Shown here in pieces: positions 31,201-43,228 of a stretch of DNA of 64,000 nt. Source of the stretch: Balanoglossus misakiensis (lineage: Eukaryota > Animalia > Hemichordata); contig CM082576.2 in assembly GCA_040954595.2 (NCBI GenBank), forward strand, positions 7,567,129-7,631,128, read 5' to 3'. The translations under genes were made by a program, and so were the position numbers. Under the pieces are notes generated by a model. It did not search any database, had not been told where the DNA came from, and worked only from the letters and a program-made list of their open reading frames with translations. Position 1 is the stretch's first letter. Each line of letters opens with the position of its first letter.

Positions 31201-31993
31201 CCCCCCTTTTTTTTTACCTCCATGGTAAGGCGTAGCCTTGCCTGGCTGCAGTACCGTGGTTTTGCCTGTGTAGGCTGTAACTGTAACCCCCCCCCCCCCC
31301 GCATCAGCAAAACAGAGTCAAGGCACTGTAACTAGGGCAAGACGAGCCGGGGGGGGGGGGCTGGCACAGAAAGCTCTCCTTACAACTATCGGTCAGACGA
31401 GATATAGTCGACGCTCGAAATCGTCAACTATCTATCTATCGATACTATATTAATGCTATAACTAGTTACAGCTCAGCTTAGCTAAAGGTCAGCGATGACA
31501 AGTACATACTACGTCATCTTGCACTCGCCCTTTCCCGGCGGGCCGGTTTCCATGTATGGATACCGGGTACCGGGCAATTCGCACGGATAGATGATCGATC
31601 TGCAGCCATCACAGGTTCCCCGAGTTACCCCAACCCTACCCTCCCATCGGCTGGTACCAATTTCATGAAAATAAGAAGACCAGCACGCCCTAATAAAACT
31701 CGATTACCGAGTACCACGTGCAGTATTGGGCACGTCATCCACGAGTGTTGCGTGTTGCATGTTGCTGAGTGGATATCGAATGGAATACATACCGCACACC
31801 GACAGACCAGATCGGCCTCTTCGGCAAGCATATCCACCACTTTACCCTTGCCTTCGTCGCCCCACTGGCAGCCGATGATCACGGACACCTTATTTGGTAC
31901 ATCTTCCTTCATTTTCTTCCTCAGATGATCGTTTTCTGTGATGCCGTTTTCGGTAGGACAACTCTTTGTACTTGCACTGCCTGTGGCCGCCAT
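25240..31993 (-). CDS. ADSS: Adenylosuccinate synthetase (PurA family); 12 coding exons
   Basis: Exons 31993-31793 ([15 protein letters not shown]-loop), 29844-29742 ([10 protein letters not shown]...FHLLPSG), 29616-29512, 28843-28786, 28170-28063 ([12 protein letters not shown]), 27907-27826, 27475-27349 ([14 protein letters not shown]), 26752-26598 (TYPYVTSS...[10 protein letters not shown]), 26369-26245 (RRRRCGWLD), 26134-26037 (TKLDVMD), 25816-25667 (LPGW...LPPNAQNY) and 25292-25240 (WIGVGKSR). Start chosen at AAGATGGCGGC; an in-frame upstream ATG at ~32077 is possible. Confidence 0.97.
28246..28336. mobile_element. Copy of the ~90-bp piggyBac-like MITE, in an ADSS intron
   Basis: TTAGCCCTTTCACCCCC...GGTCCAACC...GAACCATGGTGGTGAAAGGGTCAA, with near-identical ends to 7992-8084. 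Confidence 0.72.
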
Positions 31994-33549
31994 CTTCGCG
32001 CGTTTAGTAGTGTTCGAACCCGGCTGCGATGCGCCTGCGCTGCTGCGTGAAGACTGGCCGTCATTGACCCACGACATAGTGCGTATGTCTGCTAATTTAT
32101 TCACTCCCCCCCCCCCCCCATTAATGATCGGTAATAGAGTTGGCTGTTCACAATACCCGTTTTTAAATAAAAACAAATGAATATAGTATTATGGTAAATA
32201 AAAAAATTCGAATGCATTTATTGATAATGATAAAGGGCGTGGTACGGGCCATGTCGTGCTTTGAAGAAGTGAATTTGTTCTTGCCAAAGCTTGAAACACG
32301 ATTTAACATTACCGGAGGTTTGGGAACGAGAGCGATTGATTTAATTCGTTAAAATTAACAAATAAATTCATTTTTAAAAAAGTGCCGATGAAGTTGGAAG
32401 AGCAACTGGTGAAAGTAAGTCCCATGATAATAAACAGAAGAATTTGATTGACTTTGTTTTTCTGGGGAAAAGTATCTTACACATCATAACCCACCTGTTA
32501 ATTTGTTTATATGAATTGAAAAATATTATGACTAAAACTGCAGGGTTTTTATATGTCACTCTAAATGGTCTACTTTCACTATTAGGTATTTTCTGTGGAA
32601 CGGGACAATTATTACCACAGCCGATATAAACATGACCGTGTTTCCGACAGTTTAATCGTAAAACAGTGAATTTCGACAGTACTTCCCCCGACGATGTCCA
32701 AAGGTTTACACATAGGCCAAGTACGATGCGCTTAATTTAATTAAAATAGTTGTGCTGTAATGTCTGTGATTAGAAATAGCAGCTATCTGCAGTGACCAAA
32801 CACTGCTCTGCACTTACAATGAAAAACTATGTCGATGTCGCCATTCTTTTCGGAAATGACGACAGCAGCAATGTTCTCTCGTGATATCAACTGTTTCCAT
32901 GACGACTTATTCCGGATGTGTTTTTTTCCAAACGTCATCGGTTTATATTACACAATGATTTGCATGGCAGTAACTAAAGAATCAATACAAAATCACGATA
33001 ACATAAAAGGCTGGCGATTTTTAATTATTTAAATGAGTACATAAGGAAATACGAATTGTTTTGTGATTCCTGAACTCTACTAACGACGGAAGACAGGAAG
33101 CCAAAATATGAAAGCTTCGGCATAGCATTTACTGTATATATGTTTTGTGTGTCGAAAGTGATACGAGTAATTTCATTTTAGTGTTCACATGTCGTGAATC
33201 TATCTTTCTGATAGTCTGAACCTGCTGGTCATTAGAATATAGCTTTTGTTGCCTTTATTTCATGTTTTATTTCGTTTTAATTGTTAAAAAACATACTCAT
33301 GTGCCGACGTGCGTATGAGTTTTTTCCATTAGATGTACCCAACCAAGTGTGGTCAAAATATACCGTGGGTGGCGCTGTAACTCCGACTACATGGATGCCA
33401 TAGATGCAACAGGTGTGGACGTCTTTCACCGAGACAATGAAGAAAGCACTGGTGTTAATATCACCCGCTGTAATAATCTGAAATTGTTCACCAGCAGAAA
33501 TCTGATGGTATCATTGTTGATCGCAACTTTCACATCATGTGACACGCAG

Positions 33550-34166: not shown

Positions 34167-36947
34167 ATGTTGCGAAGTGGACGTACACGTATGAACATTG
34201 CCTTTGGCAAGCAGGCTGTCGGCCTGAAGAAGACACAGAGCGATATGAAAATGGCGACTGATAGAAACGCCACAAAGCCGGTGAGTTTCTGAACAACTTT
34301 TGTCGAATGTTCCGGGTTATACAGGGAAAAATAATCGAGCGCAGTTTCTTGACATGGTTTTAAATTAAAGCCTCTACTTTCGTGACAGTGTATAATACGG
34401 GCACGTCTCGTACTTGTGAACTATAGGCAGTGTTGTCTAGATCTGCATTGCACAGCCGGCAATTTTCCTCGACCGACAGTAGATTTGTAAAACGTTCTCT
34501 CTACGTTCTCGTTCATGCAGCAGAGGCGAGGACCGTTTTCTATCACCAACCTACCCGCCGCCGAAGTCGAGAAGAAGAAACCATTCGTCAGACAACAAAA
34601 TGGTTGTGTTCAGAAATCATTCAAACGTGAGTAACATTTAAATACCTCGATTGGTCGTGGTTTTTCACCCCCTGTGAAAGTTGACTTGTTCAATCATCCA
34701 CAAGACTTGCACATTTTATTGCATTGCATGTATATATTTTTTGGGAATGTTTTTACCGAATATCAATTTCCCCGCCAGAAACCAAAGATGTTGAAATGCC
34801 CTCTGAATCCAGGGATGTCGAAATGGTAAAGGCTCGCTCCGATGTCACTCCTGTTGCCGTCAGCCGTCCTGTTGACAAAGTCAAATCATCGCCAAAGTTC
34901 TGCCGTAACGCCGATAGTACAGACGTCGATTTCGCCGAATATGCTGATGACGTATACAATTATCTTAAGGTGAGACTGCATAAAAATTGGTTGTGTATGA
35001 AAAAGATGCATTTTCAGAAATCGTTCCAAATTGTGCGATATTATATTTCAAAGCCAGTTTTTGAACTTTCAGAAAGCCACACCCAAGTATTAAACTTTCT
35101 CTCGGCTACTTGTAATCCTATATGCTTGGGTTCAGCGTCGGACCGAATCGAATTTTCCCTTTTCTGCACGAGTAAGCCTTCTCCGCAGAGTCTCGACATG
35201 ACCTCATTCCCTCTCAAATCTTGTACATCCACGCAGCGAATGGAACACAAGACGTGTCTGCCTGACACTTTTTTGAATGGTGACAACGATTATACAAGAC
35301 TGAGGAGAGCCATTCTTCTGGACTGGGTGATTCAAGTACAGGTAGGCCTAACGCATCATTTTTAAGTTTCCCATTTTTCATTTTCTTTAAGTGCCTTGGC
35401 AATTGCCTTCTTACTAATCATTCAATCGTTCTACATGTATTTCACACCCCAGTGCCATTTGCATCTACATGATGAAACTCTCCACTTGGCCGTGACCATG
35501 ACGGACAGATTCCTCAGCCTTGCTACCGTCCCTCTCGACAAGTTGCAATTATTGGGCGTCACCTGTCTTCTGGTCGCTTCTAAGATTGAAGAGAGGTACC
35601 CTCCCGACGTAAGTATATGGACATCGTCTCCTAAACCCATATCGGCGTGTACCTACAGATCTTAAATTTAGATTTTTTTTGTCGTCACTTCAGTGTGGTG
35701 TTGCCAAGGATTTTAGCCTAGTATATTGTATTCTTTCCCCGCAGGTGGAGATGTTGTGTTTCTTGACCAACAACACCTACAAGAAATCTGCCGTGTTACA
35801 AATGGAGATGATCATTCTGAGAACGCTGGCATTCGACTTCTGCCTCCCAACGCCCGTGCAGTTTTATGATCTCTACACCACTTCCAAGGCTTTCGACGTT
35901 TCTGACGAATCTAAAGCAGAAGTAAGTTTTCCAAACGCCTGCCTATGAACGCCACTTTTCCTCGTGATCAGTATAGTTGATCGTTGTCCTCATCGACATT
36001 TTTTCTGAGTAATGATTAATATCGGAAGGTTAAGATATAATTTGATATTTGACTGTTTGGAAGTGTTTGGAAGTACTTGGAAAACGATATATCAACTTTA
36101 CACCTCACCAAGGTGCTTTTCTTTGACGAGTACTCGGTTAACGAACAATATATTGGCCAACGTCTTTTGGAATACATGGACGTAAATCGCACTCTGGCTA
36201 TATAATATCCCTTTCCCGACTGCTGACTAACCAGACCCCGTATCTTTTTCAGATGATGAAGAATCTTGGAAAATACATACTGGATTTGGGCATTTGCAAT
36301 AAACACGTCTTGGCTATCCCGCCTTCCCAGCGAGCGGCAGCGGCCCTGGCATTGGCCACTAAAATACTGGCGGGCAACAATACGACGTCATCTCCCGCCT
36401 GGACACCTGCTCTTGCCAACACCACGGGATATGTGGAGGCGGCATTGTTGCCTTGCATGGAGATATATGCCACTCTACTGGCTAAAGCTCACCGCTCCAA
36501 ACAACAGGTACGACATGGTATTCAATATACCTGAAAATGTTGCATAAAGTAATAGTACATAAAGATCTCGCATCCTTGAGAAAAATTTTGAACGGCTAAT
36601 ATTGTCTTAAGTTAAAAAGCTAGACAATTTTAAGGTAGCTCCACGCGAGTTATTAATTCAAAATTGCGAAAAAAGATGCACCAACTAAATTCGCCCCGTA
36701 GTTTTTAGGGGGACAACTTGTAAACGATGCAAATTTGTTGCCCGACTTTTGGATGTCGCGCTTATAAATTTTTCTATGCCTCTCCAGCGAATGTACTAGA
36801 TTCTCACCTTCCATGTTTCCCGTTGCATTGCAGGGCGCAAGAGCGAAATACAGCAGCATCTCCGTTTACGGTGGTTTGAGTCAACTACCACTCGTCACCA
36901 AATCCCCAGTGGTCAGACAGTTGGTCATGGCGGGTGCACAGGTTTAA
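34167..36947 (+). CDS. Divergent A/B-type cyclin (possibly cyclin P/CNTD2-like)
   Basis: Exons 34167-34280, 34521-34626, 34779-34969 (EYADDVYNYLK), 35237-35341 (RRAILLDWVIQVQ), 35453-35608 (ETLHLAVTMTDRFLS...KLQLLGVTCLLVASKIEERYPP), 35745-35921 (LTNNTYKKSAVLQMEMIILRTLAFDFCLPTP), 36253-36507 (PPSQRAAAALALA...WTPALANTTGY) and 36834-36947. Both cyclin boxes are present and the frames are consistent. Confidence 0.92.
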
Positions 36948-38277
36948 ATGGAGCCGTCCAGGGAGATGCCCCACATTTTAGGACCATTGAAGATTTGCTG
37001 GTAATTCGAATGCAAATGGCCTAATTTTGTGGAAATTTATTTCGCCATGATCAAAAATGGGACCTGAAACGTGACTGCGTAATGTTTCCATTTTTTTTTT
37101 GGAAACTTGCACAACGCCCTTTTTTCTCTAGGGGTTCGCCGGCCAATGACAATTTCCCCTTCCCCCGCGGGCGGGGGCTTTCTGAATACGATTTAATATT
37201 TACCAGAGCAGGTTGTTTTTGTACATTTTGTAAAAAGACTACACTAACATTTGAAATCCCCTAACAAATGTACAAAGTGTATAGAACTAATGTTTCGTCA
37301 TGTTCCTAACGTTTTCTTGTTCTCTGGCCACGTTTGTATTTGTTTCTGCGGCCATTTCATTTGCGTTCATTTTTTGAATTTCCAAATCGCTGTTCGAGTT
37401 TGAAATTCATCGTTGGTTTTCGGTTTTAACTAATGTGTACATATGGTTTTCGTTTCACCAAACTGCTTTCGTTTGTCTGTATATATGTAAAAAGGCAGTT
37501 TTACTAACGGTTTTTGTTCCAGCTGTTTTGAGTGTTGACTGCGTTTTCTGATTTTTGAATGTTTGCAGTTGTATTTAAAAGCATATTCAATATTATTTTT
37601 AGCCAACACTTTCGAGAAACTGTACAGACGCTCTAATCACTAACAAGCCTGACTTTTATCAGGAACAATGTGAATATGTACAAAGAAGAAAAAGTTTATT
37701 ATATCGAGAGTGATTTATACTAAGAGTTATATATTAATAGTTTATCTTGAGTGGATTGTTATGTTCCAAGTTTGTCAGTTTCGTAAAGTTGGTTACATTA
37801 TATACTCAATAACAAATAAAAAAAAAATATTCTAAAATTACCGAGTTTTCTTCCCCATTGTCGGCAATTCGTTGAATTATGCATCTTGATTGACATAGAG
37901 GGCGCACTGTTAGTTGGCCAACCCTCTATTTAGCTGAAAAGGGTATTATAGGAACTAGTACTTTAGCACTGGTGATTTTAGTTGTATATGTACACTTGAC
38001 TACCTTATCAAACCAACAGACGTTCATCTTGACCATCAAAAAGTACTTTATTACTTTGAAAATGGAGAAATTATTTTTTCTCCCAAACGGATACAAAATC
38101 TGAAAACAGTCTCTATTGCACATAACCATACCAACTGAAAACTCATCTCTGAAGGGAATTGATTGTATCTTCAATGAAAATATTCTCAATTTCATGACGT
38201 ATTTACAGCTTAAAACCTAAACTCATTTTTAAAGCTTTAAAAAATGCAGTTTGCTTCGTCACGTGACGAAGCATACT

Positions 38278-41200
38278 TCAAAGTGTATTGAGGCAAGCAT
38301 GTTGCGGTTCGGAACTGATAAATTTTTCACATTCTGCTTCTGTGAGTAACCTCGCACAGAAATCGGTATCCAACGGACGAGGTTTGCTCAGTTTTTTCTT
38401 CTTTCCTTTTGACATTTCATAAAACTAGAGGGAGCAAAAAAAAATTAAAATTAGAGATGAGAGTGTACAACAAAGTTCTAAAAATTGATGTACTCTAACG
38501 CATGGCAAGAGATCAATCCCACTATCGATAGTAATAATTGAACTGGTGAGTGAGAGGAAAAAACTGCACTGGTGGACTTACCTGTAGGTTATTGTTTTCA
38601 CACACTTCAAATTTATATGGTTTTTGCTTTTGTCCACTTCGACGGACAACACCGTACAGGCTGAACTGCTGACCCGAGTTCTAATGATGCAAAATGGTGA
38701 CACCAAAACTTTTTAGAGCAACATATACCGGTAGTAAGAGCAGAAGTAAACATCGTAATTTACATGCTACCGGTACTTGGCATGAAAGTAAAGTGTAATT
38801 GTGAGAACTATGAAAACATTAGATCACTGGTCTAGTCTTTTCAACTCGTGATATGTCACAGCCGTACCTCGATTTGTTTGTGTGTTCCCCTCAGATTCAG
38901 ATACACCTTTTCAGATTGTGACTTCCCTGAAGCTGCTTGGCTCTTGTGTTTTCTGCTGCCCTTCCCTGTGAGAAAAAAATGAACACCACAGTGACTTCAA
39001 GAGCCAAAATTACTCTCTTCAGACCAGTATAATTTTCTGACAAGAAAACCAGACCACAAGCAACAACCATCTCACCTGATGTTCTTGATGACGAGCTTGC
39101 TCTGGAGTCTGTAGAATCTCTCCTTTGTTTCTTGGATGTTGGATGGAGTAGATGCTGCAGCTGAGTGGAATTTTCTATCGACTTGGCAATGCCTTTTCCC
39201 TTGCTCTTTGAGTTGGCTGTAACTGGCTGTAGCCTTTCAACTGTCATGTCACAGAAGATGAAAGATGAACGAGTGAATTCAATGAACTAAAACGTTTCTT
39301 AATTTGGAGTGTTTTTTAAATGTATGAAGTGATGGACAGGCACATGCTACTTAGTAGTTTAACGTTGACCAGGGACACTAATTTTTACTAGCGCCACCAA
39401 CAACCAAAATGCAGATTCAACTAGAGCTTGAGTCTCTTTCCCGCATAGCACTTTTTATCTGCTGTTTCATTCTAACTTCCTGTAAGATGTTTGTTGTAGG
39501 TGACTCCAAGGATGCTGACAAAACCCACTCACCTTCTTCATCAGAGAAAGTTCCCAGAGTTTCTTTGCTCCTGTCACTCTTTCGCTTATTTTCATTTTTG
39601 TCCCTGAATTCTGACGCCACATATCCATTTGCATTCTCCAACCTTTTTGGCACCTGTTGCAAAACAATGGAATATACACGATAAACTAAACCCTGTTTAC
39701 CTTATACATTTCTAGCACACATAAAAGTAATTATAGATAAGATGAACAATTAAGTTACCTTTGACATGCATCTTCTAACTAAGGCAACGACTGAAAAATA
39801 AATAGGAAAGTTTGAAGTTAGAATCCTATCAACATGAAACATAGAGACTGGACAGAGCTCTTTTATACTGTTTCTTACATACCGGTACACTCATTTGAGT
39901 GAAATTTGTTCCATAACAATGCAACAAAACACAATGTGGAAGTTATACATGCGGCTGTTTTCAAGTGTTTTGCAGTAGACACACACACACACACACACTG
40001 GCTGATAAGCTCTGTTGCCATTGTGAAGATTGTTATTTCATGATATACAGATTTATTGCAATATTACAAGGGTTGCCTGAGATCTACAGAAACATAAGTG
40101 ACCTGTGCAGAGAGAGAAGGGGCATAGCTTTTATGGTTAGCTCGTGTTTTTCCCCCACATAGATGCTAAGAAATGCTCACCTAGAAGAAGTAGAAGGAGT
40201 ATTAGTGTTGCTAGGATACCATGGATGTGAGTTAAACTAGAGAAGTCATGCAGTGATTCTGCCACCAGTGTTAAGTACTGCGTAACTTCATTCAATGTCT
40301 GTGCTGTGCTGTCAGCTACCTGATCCCGGCTGTCATCGTTGTCGTGATTTCCATTTTTGGAAACCTCTGCTTGCCCGTTGCTCTCTGTTTCACAACTGTC
40401 CCTTTCACAGTTTGTACCCTCCTCATTACGAGTCTGTTCTGTTTCTTCACTATCGACTTCATCCTTTGTCACTTCAGTCCTGAGCACAATCTCTACCAAG
40501 TAGCTATAGTTGTGGGGATACTGATAGACCAGTGAATGACTCCCTGGGGATCTGACATCCTTACTCAAATTTGTCTCTAACAAGTCTCCATAGAAACCAG
40601 CAAAGTATCTTCCCTTCTTGCCTTGGGCCATTTCATTCTGAAACAGCAAAGAACCGGCATTTTATTCCTCAGATTTAACACATTGGCATAGTCACGTTAA
40701 GTCTAATTTTACCTTCACACATCGAAACTGATCGGTGACATAGTATATTTGACACAATTATTGACCATCATATTTCTAGGATTTTCTGCGCTTACCACAT
40801 CATGGAACCACGCATCATATGGCTGGTTTTCCAAACAGGTCATGAGAGGTTTATTGCAGGGGTCCTCTTGATTGATGAATGCTTGGTATGACACTCCCAT
40901 CTTGTTGCACTGGCTGCCATCAGTGACAATGTCCGACTTGTTCACCACTAAATATTCATAAGCACCAAGCTAGGAAAACAAGAATTATGGATGCTTTTAG
41001 ATCATCAAATTTGTCTCAAATTAAAAGTGCTACTTGGCAAAGGGGATTATTATCAAACTTCGTTATAATGAAGTGTCCAAATCATTCTTAATATGCATGC
41101 AAAAATGTAAATACAGGTTTGGTACAACACATTTACTTACTTGTGTTTGAGGGTCACCTGGCTGGACAGTGGATGATGGGTCTGGTATTAGAACTACTTT

Positions 41201-43228
41201 GTCTCCAAAATTGATTGGAAAGAATAAGTCCACATTGCTGTGTTTCTCGGCGTAAGTCACTGTAACCCGAAACTTGAAACAAAAATATGGGGGAGGGGGG
41301 TTAGCTGTATCATATTTGGGGGAAACTTGAGATCGATCAAAGCGCTTGCATGACGTGAATTTGGCCAAAAATTAGGATGTTTTTGCAAAAAATATATATA
41401 CATACTGTTTCATTATTTTTAAAGTGTACTGGTTGCGTGATTCCAATTTCCACATCTTTGATGAAAAAGTCCTCTATCTTAAATCCTTTTCCCAGACTGT
41501 TGTCTCTGCCAGTGTCGACATTCAGCTTAATCATGTGTTCTATTCTGGGTTGTCCAAGTTCATACACTTGATACCTGGTGTGAAAAAAATAATGGTCAGT
41601 TCATGTGTGAGGGCGCCATAACCTCATGACACCAAACTTCAGTTGTCAGAGATTACGAGTTTTGTTAGGGTTAAACACACACATCTTGAAATATAAATGC
41701 CTGCCTTGAATGGAAATGGGAGATGAAGTCATTTCATCTGTTTTCCGGCATGTCTCAGCATCTTAGTCATGCATACCTGATATGTCCAGGACAAGTTTCT
41801 GAAATCGTGACTGAAAATGAATTTTGACCTTTCAAAGGTACACGTGAAGTCCACTTCCTTAACAACATCAGAATCTATGTTTGAAACAGTAATGAATGGA
41901 TGTCACTTTATTTCCTTCAATCCCTAAATGCACTTACCAGAGATCATCCATCAACAGACAATGTGTACTGGCGTGGTATGCGTCATGATCTGTGATGTGA
42001 TCTGGTGTCTCAGTGCTGGAACAGTCCTGGCCTCCACGCGTCTGGTATTTCGAGTCCTCCAAATCTTGGCAGTGACAACAAAATCCCTGTGTAGATGGAA
42101 GAACACAAAGTAATTAAAAGCCACACGTTTTTTTTTTAATATCACAGAGAGCTGTTGCCAAGAAATTAATCTCCTACAAACAGCTTATTTACTGTGCATG
42201 AAGCCACATCTGTAAATGACTGATCTTTGTTCTGTCAAAGGCTAAACCTGACCTTTGTGATTTGGTGCGATTCTTGAGATGTAGTAACCTTTGGCCCGCA
42301 ACTGCCAGGGTTACATCCAGTGTATTGTCTGTCGTTGTCTTTGCTGATCACATCTTCATATGCATAGTTATTTACCATCTGCAAAAGAAAAATAATAATG
42401 GCATTGCAGAACCTGAAACTTACATTGCTTATTCACATTACAAGTGTAATGTGGAAAAGATAGTCAACAAGTTGCCATCATAACCAATGTTGATTGAAAT
42501 TTTCCTGTTTTCCAACAAGCAGAACCGTACAGTGAATGAAATGTTCAATAAGTATTTACTTCTCATAATTTTCAACCAACCTTGCCAGAATATCTCAATG
42601 GATAGTTTACAACTGGAGACGACAGCTCATCTATCATAATCTCAATTGGTCTCGACAATGTAATGAACTTTTCAGTTGACGTATCATAGACTTCTGGGAT
42701 AACAATGAAATCTTTCACAGCACTGTGGTCTTCCTGAAAAGTTAAGGACAAGATTGAATAATGCAACTTCTGGTCATCTCCATCCCTGACCAACTTGAGG
42801 ACCCCCCCCCCCCCCAAAAAAAAATGTTCTCTCTCTCTGACCTTTGTAGTACTTTTTTTCCAGACAGCCAAATTGAATGACATTGCGAGGTCTTGCTTTA
42901 GTCAGAAATCCAGTGAATTAACTAGGTGTCGAAAAGGACTAACCTTCGTGGAAACTGCACTAACAGTAACATCCTTGTTCTTGACGATCCTGCTCTTGTT
43001 GGTCGTGGAAGTCGCATTCAACGTGACAACAATGATGTGTGTCGAGCCCGTCGTCAGCAACTCCGCCGTTGTGTGTATTTCGGTTTCGTCGTCGTTTGAT
43101 CGCAGGGTTGTTCGGTGAAGGTGGACGCACATTATTGTCCATGAGAATATTAAGATCGTTAGAAAAGTCTGCTTCGCTGAGTAAGTGGGCATCATCACCC
43201 GCCGATCGCCAAACTCATAGAATCTCAT
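38278..43228 (-). CDS. HAP2: HAP2/GCS1 (hapless 2) class II fusexin homologue with atypical architecture, ~769 aa
   Basis: Exons 43228-42944 (N-terminal hydrophobic segment), 42733-42581 (VYDT...LSRPIEIMI...VNYPLRY), 42378-42253 (MVNNYAYEDV...C...C), 42086-41938 (GFCCHC...TRGGQDC...STHCLLMDDLW), 41574-41406 (YQVYELG), 41272-41141 (DKVVLIP), 40969-40796 (DGSQCNKMGVSYQAFINQEDPCNKPLMTCLENQP, the HAP2/GCS1 signature), 40637-40181 (ends in TM GILATLILLLLLL), 40102-40068 (least certain), 39653-39533, 39240-39076, 38965-38868, 38680-38582 and 38424-38278. The exons sum to 2310 nt, in frame. Confidence 0.9.

What the first reader, a model, noticed from the sequence alone, without database searches (positions are those of the whole stretch)
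40181..40637. HAP2/GCS1 fusexin lacking the Ig-like domain III, replaced by an acidic linker within one exon
Seen: after the final domain-I-like strand (YSYLVEIVLRTE), the same uninterrupted exon continues into ~60 aa of acidic, low-complexity sequence (VTKDEVDSEETEQTRNEEGTNCERDSCETESNGQ...DNDDSRDQ), a short helix-like stretch, and then the TM segment. Since this is a single exon and the following introns are short (78 and ~415 bp), there is nowhere for domain III exons to hide. Established: HAP2 from Chlamydomonas and Arabidopsis, EFF-1 and viral class II proteins need the beta-sandwich domain III to fold back on the trimer and drive membrane merger. Inference: this intact ~769-aa gene encodes a remodelled fusexin. 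It could be an adhesion/recognition protein, a regulator of a canonical HAP2 paralogue, or a fusogen with a different mechanism. I do not know of a described example.
Basis: partly seen in the sequence, partly recalled or inferred. Interest (0 to 1): 0.9.

Follow-up and report, generated by a model that had tools for sequence, protein, structure and literature searches.

The report
Acorn-worm HAP2 lacking domain III
Acorn worms carry an intact version of the ancient sperm-egg fusion protein HAP2 that lacks the domain thought to pull the two membranes together, so it likely holds membranes in contact rather than fusing them on its own.

Summary
The window holds a 14-exon, 768-aa HAP2/GCS1 gene whose domain I runs into a 50-aa polar linker, an amphipathic helix and the TM segment, with no domain III (DIII). 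The Ptychodera flava and Saccoglossus kowalevskii proteins lack DIII too. The three form one clade (100/100) inside the animal HAP2s, whose mollusc, nemertean and arthropod members keep it. The loss is therefore likely over 370 My old. All ten domain II cysteines, the TM and a folded cytoplasmic domain are kept. An AlphaFold model of the P. flava protein matches only domains I/II of solved HAP2 and leaves the linker disordered. Corrections: the next exon is 39790-39759, the linker is acidic in only two of three species, and the one spliced contig found skips the helix and TM through an internal donor. Best reading (about 0.5): a membrane tether or primer, not a stand-alone class II fusogen; DIII-independent fusion is not excluded. 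Nine literature searches found no mention of the loss, though the Saccoglossus protein is cited as HAP2. The scan's earlier notes hold only different, bacterial domain-loss relatives.

The parts
42944..43228 (-). Exon 1: start codon, hydrophobic N-terminal segment (likely signal peptide), first domain I strands; lacks the two domain I cysteines of other HAP2s
42581..42733 (-). Exon 2 (domain I to II)
42253..42378 (-). Exon 3 (domain II; conserved E154 and two Cys)
41938..42086 (-). Exon 4 (domain II tip: five Cys, R205, putative fusion-loop region)
   Evidence: Pfam PF10699 E 0.0038; junction to exon 5 seen in an X3 contig
41406..41574 (-). Exon 5
41141..41272 (-). Exon 6 (AAG acceptor)
   Evidence: junctions not seen in RNA contigs
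40796..40969 (-). Exon 7: HAP2-GCS1 core motif with three Cys
   Evidence: PF10699 E 2.1e-18; junction to exon 8 in X3
40470..40637 (-). Exon 8, first part: end of domain II and last domain I strand (aa 397-452)
40320..40469 (-). Exon 8: 50-aa acidic/polar linker where domain III would be (aa 453-502)
40319..40319 (-). Internal 5' splice site (CAG|GTAGCT) used by the X3 contig; removes 139 nt coding helix and TM start; product predicted to stop 3 codons into exon 9 (505 aa)
40233..40319 (-). Exon 8: amphipathic membrane-proximal helix (aa 503-531), MPER-like by inference
   Evidence: hydrophobic moment 0.47; 14 of 29 identical to P. flava
40181..40232 (-). Exon 8: start of the TM segment (aa 532-548), ending at donor 40180
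39759..39790 (-). Exon 9 (32 nt): end of TM and basic stop-transfer residues
   Evidence: both ends used in the X3 contig; matches P. flava
39533..39653 (-). Exon 10 (cytoplasmic, predicted disordered)
39076..39240 (-). Exon 11 (cytoplasmic, Ser/Lys-rich, predicted disordered)
38868..38965 (-). Exon 12 (start of the conserved C-terminal cytoplasmic domain)
38582..38680 (-). Exon 13 (C-terminal domain)
38278..38424 (-). Exon 14 (end of C-terminal domain, stop codon)

Best explanation
This gene is the acorn-worm orthologue of HAP2/GCS1 and has no domain III, so its product likely works as a membrane-anchored tether or primer at gamete contact rather than as a stand-alone fusogen. Shown: orthology, absence of DIII in three hemichordate species, retention of the domain I/II fold, its domain II cysteines, the TM and the cytoplasmic domain. 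Inferred: (1) surface display on a gamete; (2) the domain II tip engages the opposite membrane or a partner and the domain I/II rods trimerise, as a DIII-deleted algal HAP2 does; (3) the 79-124 residues between domain I and the TM are long enough to let a hairpin form but supply no clamp to drive it, so the membranes are held close and another factor completes the merger; (4) the internal donor at 40319 gives a TM-less product that would be degraded or secreted, a possible off-switch outside gametes.
For: P. flava XP_070578829.1 and S. kowalevskii LOC102804021 share the architecture. PF10699 matches stop at profile position 357 and 325-326 of 515, while 41 of the 45 proteins reach 417 or more. 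A DIII profile hits 91 of 107 proteins of 300 aa or more and 0 of 4 hemichordate rows. Tree: 3 hemichordate rows 100/100 on a 0.87 stem within a 43-row animal clade (100/99); 37 of the other 40 rows have a DIII hit and 3 end before or at DIII. AlphaFold of P0003 with an 88-row alignment, most rows carrying DIII: domains I/II mostly pLDDT 85-97, residues 457-569 under 50. The model aligns to Cyanidioschyzon HAP2 residues 37-456 only (Z 25.7, rmsd 5.2, 362 aligned), almost exactly the D1D2 construct 28-457 that still forms trimers (PMC9279424, passages). DIII buries about 2,100 A2 and clamps the trimer (PMC5332557, passages). 10 of 10 domain II Cys columns are kept; both domain I Cys and at least 7 of 8 DIII/stem Cys columns are lost. 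Linker and domain I/II are both net acidic in the window (-16, -19) and P. flava (-25, -18), and linker length and charge vary (79, 124, 90 aa; Saccoglossus -2), which argues against a specific substitute clamp. Selection: 10 of 10 listed allelic indels are intronic and 0 of 41 changed codons is a stop; the C-terminal domain is 60 of 93 identical to P. flava against 233 of 401 for domains I/II, so the TM-bearing frame is the maintained one.
Against: No function, expression site or localisation was tested. Everything a fusogen needs except DIII is kept (domain II cysteines, the conserved Glu and Arg, MPER-like helix, TM), which fits continued fusion as well. The only spliced contig lacks the TM, so the membrane form was not seen in this species' RNA. 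The putative fusion loop has only 2 bulky hydrophobic residues in 24 in the window (4 in P. flava, 7 in Saccoglossus; 1-5 in nine DIII-bearing animal HAP2s), so membrane insertion is uncertain. A DIII-bearing paralogue or a separate DIII gene could not be excluded (no genome; 65 of 215 hits not listed; 30 look-ups for names, several unnamed).
Confidence: 0.5

Rival explanations
1. It is still the gamete fusogen and fuses without domain III: the domain I/II trimer zippers from the membrane-inserted tips, and the flexible linker lets the stem/MPER-like helix bind domain II and bring the TM to the fusion loops.
For: Domain II cysteines, conserved Glu/Arg, amphipathic helix and TM are all kept over more than 370 My. 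D1D2 alone trimerises (PMC9279424). The stem of algal HAP2 binds a domain II groove (PMC6327110 section 12). The linker is long enough to span a gap of about 15 nm (contour length inferred).
Against: DIII fold-back is the consensus driving step in the passages read, and soluble DIII blocks EFF-1 and viral fusion (PMC8784728; PMC2171229 listing). The linker is predicted disordered, poorly conserved (13 of 50 and 10 of 50) and like-charged with domains I/II in two of three species.
Confidence: 0.25
2. It is half of a split or regulated system: a separate DIII-bearing protein, or a canonical HAP2 paralogue, supplies the clamp or is inhibited by this protein.
For: Free DIII binds core trimers in viral class II proteins (PMC2171229, listing and abstract start). 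A TM-less splice form exists.
Against: No DIII-like frame in the 64-kb window (best E 0.45). No second hemichordate HAP2 among the hits that carry names.
Confidence: 0.1
3. It has been co-opted for a non-gametic role, or is a decaying remnant whose main transcript is non-productive.
For: Long stem branch (0.87). The one spliced contig has a stop codon 3 codons into exon 9. 25 of 41 changed codons between alleles are non-synonymous.
Against: Open frame over 14 exons; 10 of 10 listed indels intronic; exon 7 has 5 synonymous and 3 non-synonymous changes over 33 and 141 sites; 58% and 42% identity in domains I/II to P. flava and Saccoglossus. These reject decay but not co-option.
Confidence: 0.13
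4. The missing domain is an assembly or gene-model artefact.
For: Short-read contigs only; no single record spans the gene.
Against: Three species and separate assemblies agree. DNA contigs tile the exon without joints and a spliced contig shows no extra exon. The longest stop-free stretches in the three neighbouring introns are 30, 62 and 16 codons.
Confidence: 0.02

Closest known systems
HAP2/GCS1 gamete fusogen (Pfam PF10699; PDB 7S0K, 5MF1, 6E18, 6DBS, 5OW3, 5OW4)
   Same: Domain I/II sequence and predicted fold, ten domain II cysteines, conserved Glu and Arg, amphipathic helix before a single TM.
   Different: No domain III, no cysteine-rich stem, no first domain I disulfide; a polar disordered linker instead.
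Saccoglossus kowalevskii LOC102804021 (XP_006821859.1), listed as a HAP2 in PMC6327110
   Same: Orthologue with the same DIII-less architecture.
   Different: The text and supplement legends that I read do not mention the missing domain; its linker is not acidic.
Mollusc, nemertean and arthropod HAP2-like proteins (Solemya, Pecten, Tubulanus, Lineus, Uloborus, Cryptolaemus and others)
   Same: Nearest clade members; molluscs and nemerteans share the C-terminal cytoplasmic domain.
   Different: They keep DIII and 6-11 cysteines between the core motif and the TM, against 0-2 here.
Engineered D1D2 fragment of Cyanidioschyzon HAP2 (residues 28-457; PMC9279424)
   Same: Same domain boundaries as the modelled ectodomain (37-456 aligned).
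   Different: A soluble laboratory construct; here the truncation is natural, membrane-anchored and conserved.
Other fusexins: EFF-1/AFF-1, archaeal Fsx1, viral class II proteins
   Same: Domain I/II fold similarity (Z 8-10).
   Different: All the solved ones listed have DIII by my recall and the passages read; Fsx1 adds a domain IV rather than losing one (PMC9259645).

Membership tests
HAP2/GCS1 gene family (by descent) | PF10699 match above the curated cut-off | tested here: met
   Exon 7 alone 66.6 bits against 27.4; orthologues 174.5 and 162.3 bits
HAP2/GCS1 gene family (by descent) | Groups with other HAP2s in a tree | tested here: met
   Within a 43-row animal clade, 100/99; midpoint root, 66 of 89 rows used
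HAP2/GCS1 gene family (by descent) | Conserved domain II cysteines and the Glu/Arg pair at the tip | tested here: met
   10 of 10 Cys columns; E154 and R205 align with algal HAP2 via P0003; that they form the salt bridge is recalled, not computed
Canonical three-domain class II fusexin | Domain I beta-sandwich and elongated domain II | tested here: met
   Model of the P. flava orthologue: Foldseek E 9.5e-23 and VIA Z 25.7 to 7S0K
Canonical three-domain class II fusexin | Ig-like domain III between domain I and the TM | tested here: not met
   No profile hit in 4 of 4 hemichordate rows, no strands predicted, DIII cysteines absent
Canonical three-domain class II fusexin | Single C-terminal TM anchor with membrane-proximal amphipathic segment | tested here: met
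   In the genomic frame and both orthologues; absent from the one spliced contig
Canonical three-domain class II fusexin | Hydrophobic fusion loop(s) at the domain II tip | tested here: inconclusive
   2, 4 and 7 bulky hydrophobic residues in 24 in the three species; 1-5 in DIII-bearing animal relatives
Canonical three-domain class II fusexin | Post-fusion homotrimer | not testable with these tools
   Three copies of the 405-residue ectodomain exceed the tool's size limit; needs purified protein
Canonical three-domain class II fusexin | Fuses membranes; gamete expression | not testable with these tools
   Needs cell-fusion assays and gonad RNA; the tissue of run X3 is not on record

The most novel reading that the evidence does not exclude
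Acorn worms fertilise with a fusexin that merges membranes without domain III, the first natural class II fusogen to dispense with the fold-back clamp, switched on by choice of a splice donor that adds the membrane anchor.
Probability: 0.22. Interest if true: 0.92.

Novelty: new variant of a known kind. Interest (0 to 1): 0.67.

Why it matters
Hemichordates are the deuterostomes that papers name as having HAP2 (PMC5332557, PMC9279424). If their protein cannot fuse alone, a canonical HAP2 may be missing from this lineage as well, which bears on when the ancestors of vertebrates changed their gamete-fusion machinery. If it does fuse, domain III fold-back is not obligatory for class II fusion. 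Either result is testable with one construct, and mollusc HAP2 offers a close DIII-bearing control.

Tried and rejected
No genome is held for this window, so no paralogue scan. No run is on record as RNA; X3 was recognised as spliced from its GT-AG joints. A single-sequence AlphaFold run was uninformative (mean pLDDT 34.4). A two-copy complex job on residues 48-452 of P0003 gave no verdict (score 0.00, alignment not used, fold uncertain) and is not used either way. Word-index searches were insensitive: 1, 8 and 1 hits; one search missed even P0003. Atlas search of the C-terminal domain gave no usable hit, and VIA matches to Tudor/PWWP/SH3-like barrels were weak (Z 3.6-4.3); the domain was not folded alone. 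Twelve non-hemichordate proteins without a DIII profile hit were examined and not counted as parallel losses: five end inside domain II (P0061, P0072, P0081, P0082, P0140), one is a C-terminal fragment (P0161), two reach Pfam position 477-510 (P0091, P0059), two look like faulty or fused models (P0020, P0069), P0011 ends 24 aa after domain I, and plant-like P0127 lacks the end of the core as well. The CxxxxC pair in the window and P. flava linkers was considered as a DIII remnant; it is absent in Saccoglossus and its alignment to a DIII cysteine is probably forced. Literature searches for a described DIII-less HAP2 found none. The scan's notes hold no look-alike by sequence.

Full report
The locus. 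The window is eukaryotic DNA. On the minus strand, 43228-38278, 14 exons join into one frame of 768 codons. Exon 7 matches Pfam HAP2-GCS1 at E 2.1e-18 and exon 4 weakly; 2 of the 9 exon translations scanned hit the family. The finding is exon 8 (40637-40181). It holds the last domain I strand, a 50-aa linker with 17 acidic residues, an amphipathic helix and the start of the TM segment.

Not an artefact. Three runs of one sample record hold the stretch. Contigs of X1 and X2 cover exon 8 in every bin, with no joint or loose end. X3 is labelled 'DNA?' but its contigs skip eight GT-AG introns, so I read it as cDNA; X1 and X2 show none of these joints, which argues against a retrocopy. Its main contig joins exon 7 to 8 and 8 to 9 directly. 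The longest stop-free stretches in introns 7-9 are 30, 62 and 16 codons. A DIII profile has no hit better than E 0.45 in six frames of the window.

Exon 9 is 39790-39759: the spliced contig uses it and it matches the P. flava protein. The X3 contig leaves exon 8 at 40320, dropping the 139 nt that code the helix and TM start; the frame then stops after three codons, giving 505 aa. No X3 contig covers 40319-40181, but contigs show presence, not absence. The two donors score alike (7 of 9 consensus matches each). The TM-bearing frame is the one under constraint: the cytoplasmic C-terminal domain, which only that frame encodes, is 60 of 93 identical to P. flava. By the exon-junction rule (recalled) the short form would be an NMD target.

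Orthologues. The best hit of exon 7 is a P. flava protein, 81% identical there; the second is S. kowalevskii LOC102804021. I infer that the window is from an acorn worm closer to Ptychodera. Both proteins go from domain I into a polar linker, helix and TM. Their Pfam matches end at 357 and 325-326 of 515; 41 of the 45 proteins scanned reach 417 or more, the four others being Saccoglossus, two short proteins and one model with an RNase H insert. My DIII profile hits 91 of 107 proteins of 300 aa or more; most of those helped to build it, so Pfam is the independent check. The 16 misses are 4 hemichordate rows and 12 others. Only the hemichordate rows combine a complete domain I/II core, no DIII, a TM and a tail; P0011 and P0127 are the nearest exceptions and look truncated.

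Direction of change. In a tree of the domain I/II core (66 of 89 rows; 20 left out for covering under 70% of the core, 3 as isoforms) the three hemichordate rows form one clade, 100/100, on a stem of 0.87. It sits in a 43-row clade (100/99) whose named members are molluscs, nemerteans and arthropods. Of the other 40 rows, 37 have a DIII hit and 3 end before or at it. The root is a midpoint and the position inside the clade is weak (82/69 with spiralians). Since DIII is also present outside the clade, one loss on the hemichordate stem is the simplest reading. The two lineages split more than 370 My ago (PMC4729200, passages). No echinoderm or chordate name appeared in 30 look-ups, but many rows are unnamed and 65 of 215 hits were not listed.

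Structure. I folded the P. flava orthologue, not the window protein. With an 88-row alignment, residues 50-443 are mostly confident, 457-569 are under pLDDT 50, 570-597 form the TM helix, 599-713 are mostly under 50 and 718-805 fold confidently. The nine best Foldseek rows are HAP2 chains. VIA aligns model 54-455 to 7S0K 37-456 (Z 25.7, rmsd 5.2, 362 aligned) and stops at 455, 381 and 382 in 5MF1, 5OW3 and 5OW4. All 10 domain II cysteine columns are kept in the three species; the 2 domain I columns and 7 of 8 DIII/stem columns are empty in all three, and the eighth is doubtful. Between the core motif and the TM there are 145-195 residues with 0-2 Cys, against 210-237 residues with 6-11 Cys in ten named animal relatives. 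The linker is acidic in the window and P. flava but not in Saccoglossus.

Selection. Of 63 allelic substitutions taken from the truncated lists are intronic; 41 codons change, 16 silently, none to a stop. Domains I/II have 10 silent and 8 replacement changes; the linker 4 and 6; helix and TM 0 and 2; the tail 2 and 6. All 10 listed indels are intronic although exons are 47% of the gene. The numbers are small.

Mechanism. In the consensus model DIII folds back on the domain I/II trimer, burying about 2,100 A2, and pulls the TM to the fusion loops (PMC5332557, passages). Algal HAP2 without DIII still trimerises (PMC9279424, passages), and the natural protein here has nearly the same boundaries. 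I therefore expect it to engage and trimerise but not to pull: a tether or primer (0.5). The rival is fusion without DIII, using the stem and MPER-like helix (0.25); the algal stem binds a domain II groove (PMC6327110, section 12) and every other element is kept. A split or paralogue-regulating system (0.1) and a non-gametic role (0.13) remain open. Against my reading: nothing functional was tested, the tip is not clearly hydrophobic, and the TM form was not seen in RNA.

What is in print. Hemichordates are named as HAP2 holders in PMC5332557 and PMC9279424 (passages), and XP_006821859.1 is in the resources table of PMC6327110. Nine searches found no statement of a DIII-less HAP2; 'HAP2' with 'Ptychodera' gave 0 papers. 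I read passages only of PMC6089408, PMC2766252, PMC9259645, PMC8777248 and PMC8784728, and only the listing and abstract start of PMC2171229. The supplement of PMC6327110 gave legends only; its Figure S4, a stem-region alignment, is a picture and may show the gap. Most subscription papers are outside the library.

Verdict. A real, conserved, apparently unremarked variant: a HAP2 orthologue by descent that fails the three-domain definition of a class II fusexin. New variant of a known kind; interest 0.67.

Noticed in passing
window 38965-38278 (- strand), aa 672-767; P0003 715-809: A confidently predicted folded cytoplasmic domain of about 95 aa with no Pfam match. A profile from five spiralian-clade rows finds it in hemichordates, molluscs, nemerteans and one unnamed cluster outside the animal clade (P0095 and members), 19 of 107 proteins, and in none of the named arthropod rows. 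Weak likeness to Tudor/PWWP/SH3-like barrels.
   Followed up: partly
window 40319 and 40178: The internal donor removes exactly the helix and TM. One allele in run X2 changes position +3 of the long-form donor from G to A. The codons Gln-Val at the internal donor are also present in P. flava.
   Followed up: partly
window about 34230-36950 (+ strand): A cyclin gene (Cyclin_N and Cyclin_C) ends about 1.3 kb from the HAP2 stop codon, tail to tail; an adenylosuccinate synthetase exon lies at about 31600-32200 (- strand).
   Followed up: no
P0008, P0012, P0045, P0053, P0050 and relatives: Molluscs, nemerteans, spiders, ticks, barnacles and many insects have full three-domain HAP2s, wider than the 2009 view that most bilaterians lost it (PMC2766252). 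Several show a second hydrophobic segment after the first TM that hemichordates lack.
   Followed up: no
window 40401-40599, runs X1-X3: Two divergent alleles: 18 differences in 200 bases of exon 8. The X3 contig carries one allele's letters at 40536-40599 and the other's at 40401-40467.
   Followed up: no
window 39970-40007 and 41273: A CA microsatellite in intron 8, and an AAG acceptor at exon 6.
   Followed up: no
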